Source: Eledone cirrhosa (Eukaryota). Taken from it: 64,000 bases of DNA. The translations under genes were made by a program, and so were the position numbers. The stretch spans positions 68,262,001-68,326,000 of the forward strand of contig OZ024743.1 in assembly GCA_964016885.1 (NCBI GenBank), in the 5' to 3' direction. Of this stretch, positions 61,286 to 62,365 are shown piece after piece (positions within the stretch are counted from its first letter, which is position 1; every line of letters starts with the position of its first letter). The notes under the pieces are model-generated. The model was not told the origin of the DNA. It did not search any database and saw only the letters and a program-made list of their open reading frames with translations.

Positions 61286-62365
61286 TAGCTTAAAATGGAG
61301 TGGGGATAAGAAGAAAGCAAGAACGTGGAGGGGGAGAATGTTTTCGTCATCAGTTGTCTACTGGGGGTCTGGAATATTTTGACATTTTAAAGAAAAGATA
61401 TCCACCGCGCAGAGCGTCAATAACTGGATGAGTTATTGGGAAAACGGAAGAGGGAGGGAAGGAAAGCAAAAGGGAAGAAAAGAGAAAATAGCGAAAAAAC
61501 AACAAACAAACCGAGCAATGTGCGAGCAACTTAAGGTAAGAAAATCCAAGACCTCACGATGAGAGAACTTAAGTTCAAGACTGTGTGGGCGAGAGAAAAG
61601 ACCCCAGCGTCTGACCCCAGCGAGATGTAAGTGAGAAAAGGACTACTAGAGGGTCAGGTGAGGGAAACAATCAGGTGGCTGGCAGAGAGAGGTTGAGTGA
61701 AGGTGAGAGGGAGAAAGGAAGAGGAAGAAAGTGTGGTAAGAGTAGATAGTAACGAAATAGTTAGGTAGAAGATAGAAGACTGGTAGAGAGGATGAGTGTA
61801 AATGGGTGGGAGGGTGGAGAAAGAGAGAGGAAGAAAGAGAGGTGAGAGTAGATAGTAGTGAAATAGGTAGGTAGAAGGGAAGAGAAGAATGGCCACTGCG
61901 AAAACATGATAAAATATATGGATAATAGAAATGGCTGTATAGTTGCTATTTTAGGTAGCTTAAAATGGAGAAGGAATAAGAAGAAAGCAAGAACGCAGGG
62001 GAGTTTTCCTCATCAGTTGTGTACTGGGGGTCTCGGATATTTCTACGCTTTAAAGACAATATATCTACCGCCAAGAGCATCAATAGCTGGATAAAGACAT
62101 TGGATTTTCTTACCTTAAGTTGCTCGCACATTGCTCGGTTTGTTGTTGTTTTCTTTCGCTGTTTTCTCTTTTCTTCCCTTTTGTTTTCCTTCCCCCCTCC
62201 TCCGTTTTCCCAATAGCTTATCCAGTTATTGACTCTCTGGCCGGTAGATATATTGTCTTTAAAGCGTAGAAATATCCGAGACCCCCAGTAGAAAACGGAA
62301 GAAAACTGATGAGGAACCCCCCACCGTTCTTGCTTTCTTCTTATTCCCACTCCATTTTAAGCTAT
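61286..62365. mobile_element. Family B element: 670-bp-period partial tandem (minus) plus inverted segment 62100-62365
   Basis: TAGCTTAAAATGGAG at 61286 and 61956, with its reverse complement ending at 62364. (TA)n on both sides. Confidence 0.85.
62010..62074 (-). ncRNA. Putative permuted hammerhead (family B); degenerate copies at 61347-61412 (minus) and 62237-62312 (plus)
   Basis: Minus strand: TTGGCGG-TA-GATA-TA-TTGTCT-TTAAAGCGTA-GAAA-TATC-CGA-GA-CCCCCAG-T-ACACAA-CTGATGA. The 61347 copy has AGACAA. Confidence 0.58.

What the first reader, a model, noticed from the sequence alone, without database searches (positions are those of the whole stretch)
61347..62312. Diverged sister family B keeps the same permuted fold by covariation in three helices
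Seen: family B shares the upstream hairpin CCCAATAGCTTAT..AGTTATTG with family A. It shows the same strand order and a near-identical linker (TTAAAGCGTA-GAAA versus TAAAGCGAT-GAAA). Every helix has a different but still complementary sequence: stem III GATA/TATC versus GGTA/TACC, stem I TTGTCT/AGACAA versus TGATTTT/AAAATCA, and outer helix TTGGCGG/CCCCCAG versus CCAACC/GGTTGG. The 3-nt bulge followed by GA is also retained. Each of the three B copies here has some damage, so the perfect stem I is a consensus. Inference: the structure is under selection across families and is not chance.
Basis: partly seen in the sequence, partly recalled or inferred. Interest (0 to 1): 0.85.

Follow-up and report, generated by a model that had tools for sequence, protein, structure and literature searches.

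The report
Rewired hammerhead ribozyme in animal transposons
This repeat carries a rearranged hammerhead RNA fold, predicted to cut itself, that recurs in thousands of copies in this animal genome and at the ends of Naiad jumping genes reported to lack ordinary hammerheads, with one of its three core helices likely replaced by a four-way junction.

Summary
The three family B copies (all damaged) belong to non-coding repeats with Penelope-type anatomy: fixed 3' end at (TA)n, ragged 5' ends, partial tandems, inversions. Exact core patterns match 6,699 and 461 places in the genome (controls 30 and 0). Their ribozyme has the strand order site-GAAA-CUGAUGA (type SGC), so far described only from metatranscriptomes. 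Across 18 natural copies of 9 subfamilies, 34 pairs are 92.8% paired and 21 show two-sided changes.

The strand after CUGAUGA and the 'linker' before GAAA each pair with a 5' leader flanking the hairpin. This gives a four-way junction where stem II should be, with 0-1 bp of stem II left. The '3-nt bulge + GA' is a k-turn sequence.

The same order occurs 3' of the ORF in 10 of 31 Naiad-type retroelements from marine metagenomes (0 of 31 in two controls), 9 of them with the junction. By eye it also ends 9 of 53 published Naiad consensuses, a clade reported to lack canonical hammerheads. Cleavage, expression and circles are untested, and the mobilising element in this genome was not found.

The parts
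61288..61956 (-). Family B full monomer (669 nt, 72% pyrimidine, no ORF of 50 codons or more); 3' end abuts (TA)n
61338..61446 (-). B ribozyme copy a: leader, outer helix and CUGAUGA (61347-61353) present; G12 of GAAA lost and stem I mismatched, so predicted dead
61957..62100 (-). 5'-truncated upstream partial monomer (head-to-tail tandem, pLTR-like)
62001..62110 (-). B ribozyme copy b: stem III 62062-62065 paired with the TATC after GAAA (62040-62043); UA site 62060-62061 (predicted cut between 62060 and 62059); stem I 62054-62059/62017-62022; CUGAUGA 62010-62016; 5' half of leader lost at the inversion junction
62100..62362 (+). Inverted 5'-truncated copy joined at the 5' end of the unit (Penelope-type inversion), ending at (TA)n
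62203..62312 (+). B ribozyme copy c: leader 62205-62246, stem III strand 62247-62250, UA 62251-62252, stem I strand 62253-62258, junction-helix strand AGCGT 62263-62267, GAAA 62269-62272, CUGAUGA 62306-62312; 10-nt insert breaks stem I
61165..61287 (.). (TA)n microsatellite at one 3' end of the unit
62363..62431 (.). (TA)n microsatellite at the other 3' end of the unit
6172..6282 (+). Family A ribozyme, core intact (predicted cut between 6222 and 6223), in a ~531-nt monomer 5808-6338 ending at (TA)n
60279..60388 (-). Family A ribozyme (CUGACGA variant; k-turn with A.G at 3b.3n), 5'-truncated copy 60207-60658

Best explanation
The motif is a hammerhead fold with the non-circular strand order site-GAAA-CUGAUGA, predicted to self-cleave, carried by non-coding repeats that are likely passengers of Penelope-like retroelements and likely took it from the Naiad clade. 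Shown by sequence and covariation: stems I and III form as crossing helices. Stem III continues through a k-turn sequence into an outer helix whose 3' strand runs straight into stem I; the kink likely provides the reach. The strand after CUGAUGA and the strand before GAAA pair with a 5' leader on either side of a hairpin, so a four-way junction stands where stem II normally is, with 0-1 bp of true stem II. Inferred mechanism: a read-through transcript of tandem monomers is cut after AUA/AUC about 110 nt upstream of the element's 3' end. Four helices (two leader helices, outer helix, stem III; about 20 bp or more) span the cut and would hold the two ends of a monomer together, favouring re-ligation into a circle by the ribozyme or by RtcB. 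A Penelope-type RT/GIY-YIG protein would nick (TA)n, prime at the fixed 3' end and copy the circle or an uncut multimer through the cut site. That would give the observed ragged 5' ends, partial tandems and 5' inversions.
For: Covariation: 92.8% of 610 cells paired and 21 of 34 pairs with two-sided change; the 10.1-11.1 pair holds in 18 of 18 copies as four types (UG, UA, AU, CG). RNAalifold independently predicts hairpin, outer helix and stem III. G1b, A2b and A1n of the k-turn are invariant in 18 of 18; 2n is G in 11 and U in 7. PMC5061560 describes the standard pattern and 2n=U variants. Naiad-type metagenome loci: 10 of 31 have the SGC order 3' of the ORF on the sense strand, against 0 of 31 reverse-complemented and 0 of 31 reversed. 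None of the 10 has a GAAA within 80 nt downstream of CUGAnGA, so no canonical fold is available. A junction is found in 9 of 10, five with no unpaired base, and shuffled leaders reach the score in 0-6 of 200; 10.1 and 11.1 cannot pair in 8 of 10. 7 of the 10 show the GIY-YIG motif before the RT motif; the other 3 contigs start after it. Natural B copies L005 and L030 give the same junction at 0 of 200. Anatomy: 55 of 78 terminal 3' ends run into (TA)n; 23 of 141 units follow a tandem copy; 20 of 118 have an inverted 5' neighbour, as described for PLEs and Naiads (PMC8557442, section 6). SGC ribozymes with an ordinary stem II cleave in vitro (PMC10085705).
Against: No cleavage or expression data. 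No RNA run was listed and the contigs laid were uninformative. A hammerhead core without stem II has not been shown to work in the papers I read. The main B subfamily (42 of 61) has G.A at 10.1-11.1 with one unpaired base, and its k-turn is non-standard with a C-G pair at 3b.3n, a sequence that folds poorly in ions alone (PMC5061560). The two leader helices are the weakest in the genomic alignment (83% paired; 1 and 2 two-sided changes). Per copy, the junction search failed in 5 of 15 genomic copies, and A/C/E/F-type copies were matched by 5-47 of 200 shuffles. The junction script was written after I had seen the sequences. All Naiad copies found in this genome are broken (open frames of at most 223 aa), their 3' ends do not show the SGC fold, and the monomer bodies show no Naiad-derived sequence. 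Meanwhile families A and C are young (95-98% alike), so the present driver is probably another PLE. 5' ends of copies follow TA microhomology rather than the cut site.
Confidence: 0.75

Rival explanations
1. The fold is real but does little or no cutting; it is kept as a structural handle that the Penelope RT/endonuclease recognises near the 3' end.
For: Most copies extend through the predicted cut site; no RNA evidence; stem II is missing or 1 bp; in the window's families the motif sits about 110 nt from the 3' end, where a recognition signal is expected.
Against: All catalytic positions and the UH rule (H never G) are kept across 9 subfamilies and 10 Naiads while every helix changes. One other Naiad has a weak twister-P5 match at the same place (E 0.018, below the gathering score), which suggests that cleavage is the function being swapped.
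Confidence: 0.13
2. It cleaves, but as a strand-swapped dimer between two copies (as proposed for minimal Penelope hammerheads) rather than as one pseudoknotted chain.
For: Copies occur in tandem (23 of 141); the crossing helices may be hard to fold in one chain; some Naiad junction helices are self-complementary (GGGCCC in L368).
Against: The k-turn or bulge and the short linkers look tuned for intramolecular reach; published SGC ribozymes cleave from single-copy transcription templates (PMC10085705).
Confidence: 0.08
3. The ribozyme is as described, but the repeats are moved by the intact C-terminal-endonuclease PLEs of this genome; the Naiad link is ancestry or convergence only. This rival concerns the driver, not the fold.
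For: PLE ORFs of 844-1096 aa with RT before GIY-YIG exist here, and (TA)n runs start about 200-240 nt after several of these ORFs; Naiad copies here are broken.
Against: None of the 20 long-ORF PLE loci has the SGC fold as its own 3' end: the copies in those loci belong to families A and C and lie away from the ORF ends. By eye, family A shares its 8-nt hairpin loop and k-turn with the published Octopus Naiad consensuses.
Confidence: 0.5
4. Chance complementarity in decaying repeats.
For: The single-sequence folding z-scores are modest (-1.6 to -2.3); the core is not better conserved than loops within family B.
Confidence: 0.01

Closest known systems
Type-SGC hammerhead ribozymes (HRIMA-1 and variants; Eckert et al. 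2023, PMC10085705)
   Same: Strand order site-GAAA-CUGAnGA; all core nucleotides; short linker from stem I into the strand before GAAA.
   Different: Those have a real stem II plus a stem I-II helix, and the paper states none was found in genomes of known organisms. Here the stem II strands pair with a 5' leader (four-way junction), the window's families add a k-turn sequence, and the motif sits in an animal genome and in retroelements. 'k-turn' and 'kink' do not occur in that paper's supplement text.
Naiad clade of Penelope-like elements (Craig et al. 2021, PMC8557442)
   Same: (TA)n targets, 5' truncation, partial tandems, 5' inversions; the same ribozyme at the 3' end of Naiad-type loci and, by eye, of 9 published consensuses.
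   Different: The window's repeats encode no protein. The paper reports that Naiads lack canonical hammerheads and only flags unexplained 'HHR_core' and 'HHR_half_core' motifs.
Non-LTR retrozymes of animals (Cervera and de la Pena 2020, PMC7229834; Li et al. 2026, bioRxiv 10.64898/2026.07.22.740005)
   Same: Non-coding, GC under 45%, one hammerhead per monomer, tandem copies, proposed PLE dependence.
   Different: Those carry type I hammerheads and give highly self-paired circles of about 170-400 nt. These have 520-900-nt pyrimidine-rich monomers that fold no better than shuffles as circles, are mostly dispersed truncated copies, and carry an SGC ribozyme.
Kink turn (review PMC5061560)
   Same: 3-nt bulge followed by G.A and A.G pairs in families A and C; 2n=U variants as in Kt-23 in families B, F and G.
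   Different: Folding is untested; the metagenome Naiads use plain bulges at the same place (read by eye).

Membership tests
Hammerhead ribozyme | Core CUGAnGA, GAAA and UH with A15.1-U16.1 | tested here: met
   CUGAnGA and GAAA invariant in 18 of 18 copies, U16.1 in 17 of 18; core intact in 44 of 61 B copies
Hammerhead ribozyme | Stems I and III flanking the cleavage site | tested here: met
   95.4% and 97.8% of cells paired, with two-sided changes
Hammerhead ribozyme | Stem II formed between the strand after CUGAnGA and the strand before GAAA | tested here: not met
   0-1 bp in 10 of 10 Naiad loci and 0-2 bp in genomic copies; the strands pair with a leader instead. It is therefore filed as working like a hammerhead, in a new architecture
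Hammerhead ribozyme | Site-specific self-cleavage after UH | not testable with these tools
   needs an in vitro assay; no RNA reads
Type-SGC hammerhead (Eckert 2023) | Block order S, G, C | tested here: met
Type-SGC hammerhead (Eckert 2023) | Uninterrupted stem II and a helix joining stems I and II | tested here: not met
   stem II replaced by a junction; the strand 5' of stem I pairs as the outer helix with a strand 5' of the cut, not with the stem II side
Rfam hammerhead or other RNA families | Match at gathering score | tested here: not met
   0 matches in the window and in 20 Naiad loci
Non-LTR retrozyme | Non-coding monomer with one hammerhead, in tandem copies | tested here: met
   no ORF of 50 codons or more in monomers A and B; tandems
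Non-LTR retrozyme | Type I hammerhead | tested here: not met
   order is S-G-C
Non-LTR retrozyme | Expressed as circular RNA | not testable with these tools
   no RNA holder listed
Non-autonomous Penelope-like element | Fixed 3' end, 5' truncation, partial tandems, 5' inversions, (TA)n bias | tested here: met
Naiad derivative | 3' end shared with an autonomous Naiad of the same genome | tested here: inconclusive
   Naiads of this genome are broken and lack the motif; the fold is shared with Naiads of other organisms and by eye with Octopus Naiads
k-turn | 3-nt bulge, G1b.A1n and A2b.G2n pairs | tested here: met
   standard in 11 of 18 copies (families A, C and one F copy); 2n=U in 7 of 18 including all B; kinking itself untested

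The most novel reading that the evidence does not exclude
A widespread, unrecognised hammerhead architecture: non-circular strand order, stem II replaced by a four-way junction closed by a 5' leader, and in this lineage a k-turn. [quoted passage not shown] Because four helices clamp the cut ends, it would be a natural self-circularising ribozyme whose activity needs sequence 5' of the cut.
Probability: 0.6. Interest if true: 0.9.

Novelty: new variant of a known kind. Interest (0 to 1): 0.82.

Why it matters
It breaks an explicit assumption of the six-permutation scheme for hammerheads (PMC10085705), namely that the strands next to CUGAnGA and GAAA pair with each other as stem II. Descriptor and Rfam searches need that stem, so a whole class may be invisible in animal genomes. 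It moves non-circularly permuted ribozymes from anonymous metatranscriptome contigs into chromosomes and into a named retroelement clade. It also gives a concrete reading to the 'HHR_core' and 'HHR_half_core' motifs left unexplained in Naiads (PMC8557442). That makes the open question of what ribozymes do for Penelope-like elements testable with ~110-nt constructs, and it offers a candidate scaffold that may favour RNA circularisation.

Tried and rejected
Rfam: nothing in the window or in 20 Naiad loci at gathering score.

RNA evidence: no RNA holder listed; two contig runs of unknown kind laid on a family A stretch gave no circle joint or end signal. Neither counts for or against expression.

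Autonomous partner in this genome:
- The 20 best GIY-YIG hits and 20 further stretches chosen for long open frames (of 150 hits listed) gave only C-terminal-endonuclease PLEs where the order could be read, none ending in the motif.
- A further PLE next to a family A copy has its own canonical-order core.
- A pattern for the Octopus Naiad ribozyme found 0 matches.
- Naiad remnants were found by motif and protein search, but they are broken and their 3' ends lack the motif.

5' ends at the cut site: 3 of 118 lie exactly there. In the first-listed genome-wide matches, 5 of 24 distinct A-type junctions (counted by eye) fall at the site and 15 at the TA of the linker, so microhomology explains them (similar for B). 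Inconclusive.

Viral contigs: 9 pattern matches, none with the helices by eye; no Naiad relatives. The first metagenome scan and a longer-protein search found nothing.

Rod-like circle fold: monomers fold no better than 12 shuffles. The core count was a parsing bug and was replaced. Earlier scan notes returned nothing.

Full report
Observation. The window is from a 3.0-Gb genome rich in (TA)n. It is likely a cephalopod; this is inferred only from by-eye likeness of its Naiad remnants and family A to published Octopus Naiads and was not tested. The B unit is a 669-nt monomer on the minus strand (61288-61956), an upstream partial monomer (61957-62100) and an inverted truncated copy (62100-62362), flanked by (TA)n. 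All three B ribozymes are damaged, but of 61 full-span genomic B copies 53 keep stem III, 46 stem I, 50 the hairpin and 44 the core. About half were fetched with a core-containing pattern. Within B the core is no better conserved than loops (0.961 vs 0.965); the signal lies between families.

Abundance. Exact patterns match 6,699 places (reversed control 30), 461 for family B (control 0) and 191 for rarer stem III variants (control 23). In 80 evenly spaced 10-kb stretches of the four largest contigs, a profile found 15 copies in 9 stretches, none of family B. Extrapolated, that is of the order of 50,000 copies (rough, clumped). Of 209 distinct copies held, 159 span the motif and fall to 14 seed groups. 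The ribozyme region averages 95-98% identity within A and C and 85% within B.

Structure. The order is cleavage site, GAAA, CUGAUGA: type SGC of Eckert et al. (PMC10085705; parts 1-6 of 8 of the text read, supplement searched by term). I aligned 18 natural copies from 9 subfamilies. They were chosen as high-scoring representatives; families D, E and H, with other leader lengths or decay, and subfamily B1, which is out of register by one base, were left out. On a 34-pair, 7-helix structure, 92.8% of 610 cells pair and 21 pairs have two-sided changes. 0 of 500 shuffles reach the observed values on four of five measures (further pair types: 440 of 500), and slid partners give 25-45%. Related sequences can exceed such shuffles, so the pair-type measure and the Naiad data below weigh more. 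RNAalifold predicts hairpin, outer helix and stem III on its own.

The strand 3' of CUGAUGA pairs with the strand 5' of the hairpin, and the 'linker' before GAAA pairs with the strand 3' of the hairpin (83% paired each). True stem II is one pair, kept in 18 of 18 copies as UG, UA, AU or CG. Subfamily B1 (42 of 61) lacks even that (G.A). Subfamily B2 (7 of 61) has an extra A after the hairpin together with U at 11.1, one event that closes a perfect junction. The loop between stem III and the outer helix has invariant G1b, A2b and A1n and a 3-nt bulge, with 2n=G in 11 and U in 7 of 18. This is a standard or Kt-23-like k-turn sequence by PMC5061560 (passages read). It would bend the chain back to the end of stem I, which the outer helix joins with 0-2 bases (inference).

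Element. 55 of 78 terminal 3' ends run into (TA)n (A 30 of 30, B 15 of 35); 23 of 141 units follow a head-to-tail copy; 20 of 118 free 5' ends adjoin an inverted copy. The predicted cut is 107-116 nt from the 3' end in families A, B and C2. Monomers have no ORF of 50 codons. This is the anatomy described for Penelope-like elements (PMC8557442; section 6 and passages read). Copies run through the cut site and beyond one monomer, so the template must have been a circle or an uncut multimer (inference).

Link to Naiads. PMC8557442 states that Naiads lack canonical hammerheads, prefer (TA)n, and that some show unexplained 'HHR_core' or 'HHR_half_core' motifs. I read the last 350-550 nt of 53 of 54 Naiad consensuses in its supplement by eye. 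Nine show S-G-C order with crossing stems I and III: Obim, Ovul, Esco, Amil, Aacu, Anas, Naiad-3_Chem, Naiad-2_Movir and Bfor (stem I only 2 bp). The leader junction is clear in Obim, Ovul and the three Acropora elements; Obim and Ovul share the 8-nt hairpin loop and the k-turn with family A. This is not computed, and motifs further upstream would be missed.

For a computed test I found Naiad remnants in this genome, searched their relatives (P0021 has GIY-YIG before RT) and fetched 33 metagenome loci. Of 31 with a 3' flank (24 with 300 nt or more; L380 and L384 left out because the match reaches the contig end), 10 carry the S-G-C motif on the sense strand, nine of them 110-586 nt after the ORF match and L383 at 1,911 nt. 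Reverse-complemented and reversed flanks give 0 of 31 each. None of the 10 has a GAAA within 80 nt downstream of CUGAnGA, and their C-terminal regions are 35-63% identical. Nine of 10 form the junction, five with no unpaired base; shuffled leaders reach the score in 0-6 of 200; positions 10.1 and 11.1 cannot pair in 8 of 10. Seven of 10 show GIY-YIG before RT; three contigs are cut. Natural B copies give the same junction at 0 of 200.

Against. Cleavage and expression are untested. The junction script was designed after I had seen the sequences; on single genomic copies it failed in 5 of 15 and was weak for A/C/E/F types (5-47 of 200). This genome's Naiads are broken and do not end in the motif, and monomer bodies show no Naiad sequence, so the current driver is unidentified and may be an intact C-terminal-endonuclease PLE. 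5' ends track TA microhomology, not the cut. Many Naiads carry other motifs at this place (and by eye), so the fold marks part of the clade only.

Novelty. Full-text searches of the held library for 'type-SGC'+'ribozyme', 'non-circular permutations'+'hammerhead' (8), 'Naiad'+'ribozyme'+'Penelope' (47), 'Penelope-like'+'hammerhead'+'non-circular'+'permutation' (126), 'hammerhead ribozyme'+'four-way junction'+'permuted' (48), 'hammerhead ribozyme'+'k-turn' (81), and octopus or cephalopod listed no paper describing this; I judged most listings by title and abstract start. Subscription papers and preprint supplements are not covered. Eckert et al. say no SGC RNA was found in genomes of known organisms. 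The 2026 retrozyme preprint (parts 1-3 of 5 read) searched type I motifs only. PMC7229834, PMC3088659, PMC10162972 and PMC13725137 were seen as passages: single-pair stem II is known (PMC3088659) and variants with additional helices are mentioned without detail (PMC13725137), so a related junction in print cannot be excluded.

Verdict. A real, strongly covarying, probably self-cleaving hammerhead variant with a new architecture and a new home in animal retroelements: new variant of a known kind, interest 0.82.

Noticed in passing
window 57384(-), 58263(+), 58503(-), 41994(-), 8266(-), 8500(+), 6801(+): Further repeats with CUGAnGA cores, several followed by a stem and GAAA in canonical order and set in inverted pairs (58006-58760 is a 99% palindrome): likely ordinary Penelope-type hammerheads.
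   Followed up: no
window 9313-12736, 26160-29550, 33550-35949: Three diverged copies (67-72% alike) of a 2.4-3.4-kb repeat, likely LINE-type coding sequence.
   Followed up: no
L354 3076-3135 (+); similar in L355, L356, L362: A Naiad-type element with a weak twister-P5 match 3' of its ORF (E 0.018, below gathering). By eye, bivalve and hemichordate Naiad consensuses also end in twister-like motifs and nematode ones in canonical-order hammerheads with a long stem II insert, so Naiads appear to swap ribozyme classes.
   Followed up: partly
L283, L285, L301, L304, L309, L311: Older, rarer SGC families (D, E, H) with other stem III sequences and, in E, a longer leader hairpin.
   Followed up: partly
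L191, L192, L193: Penelope-type ORFs of 938, 844 and 1096 aa with RT before GIY-YIG; candidates for the active driver.
   Followed up: partly
L131 522-2929 (also L083, L117, L156): A young divergent PLE family (88-97% alike) with a C-terminal GIY-YIG and a canonical-order minimal hammerhead core in its 3' end.
   Followed up: partly
L251 1258-3731: A 129-nt internal segment of an A2/C2-type monomer amplified about 17-fold as a minisatellite, in a stretch that also holds a Naiad remnant.
   Followed up: no
window 54851-56158 and 48892-49547: 40-nt (33 copies) and 27-nt (25 copies) minisatellites; 49458-50407 is a long inverted repeat.
   Followed up: no
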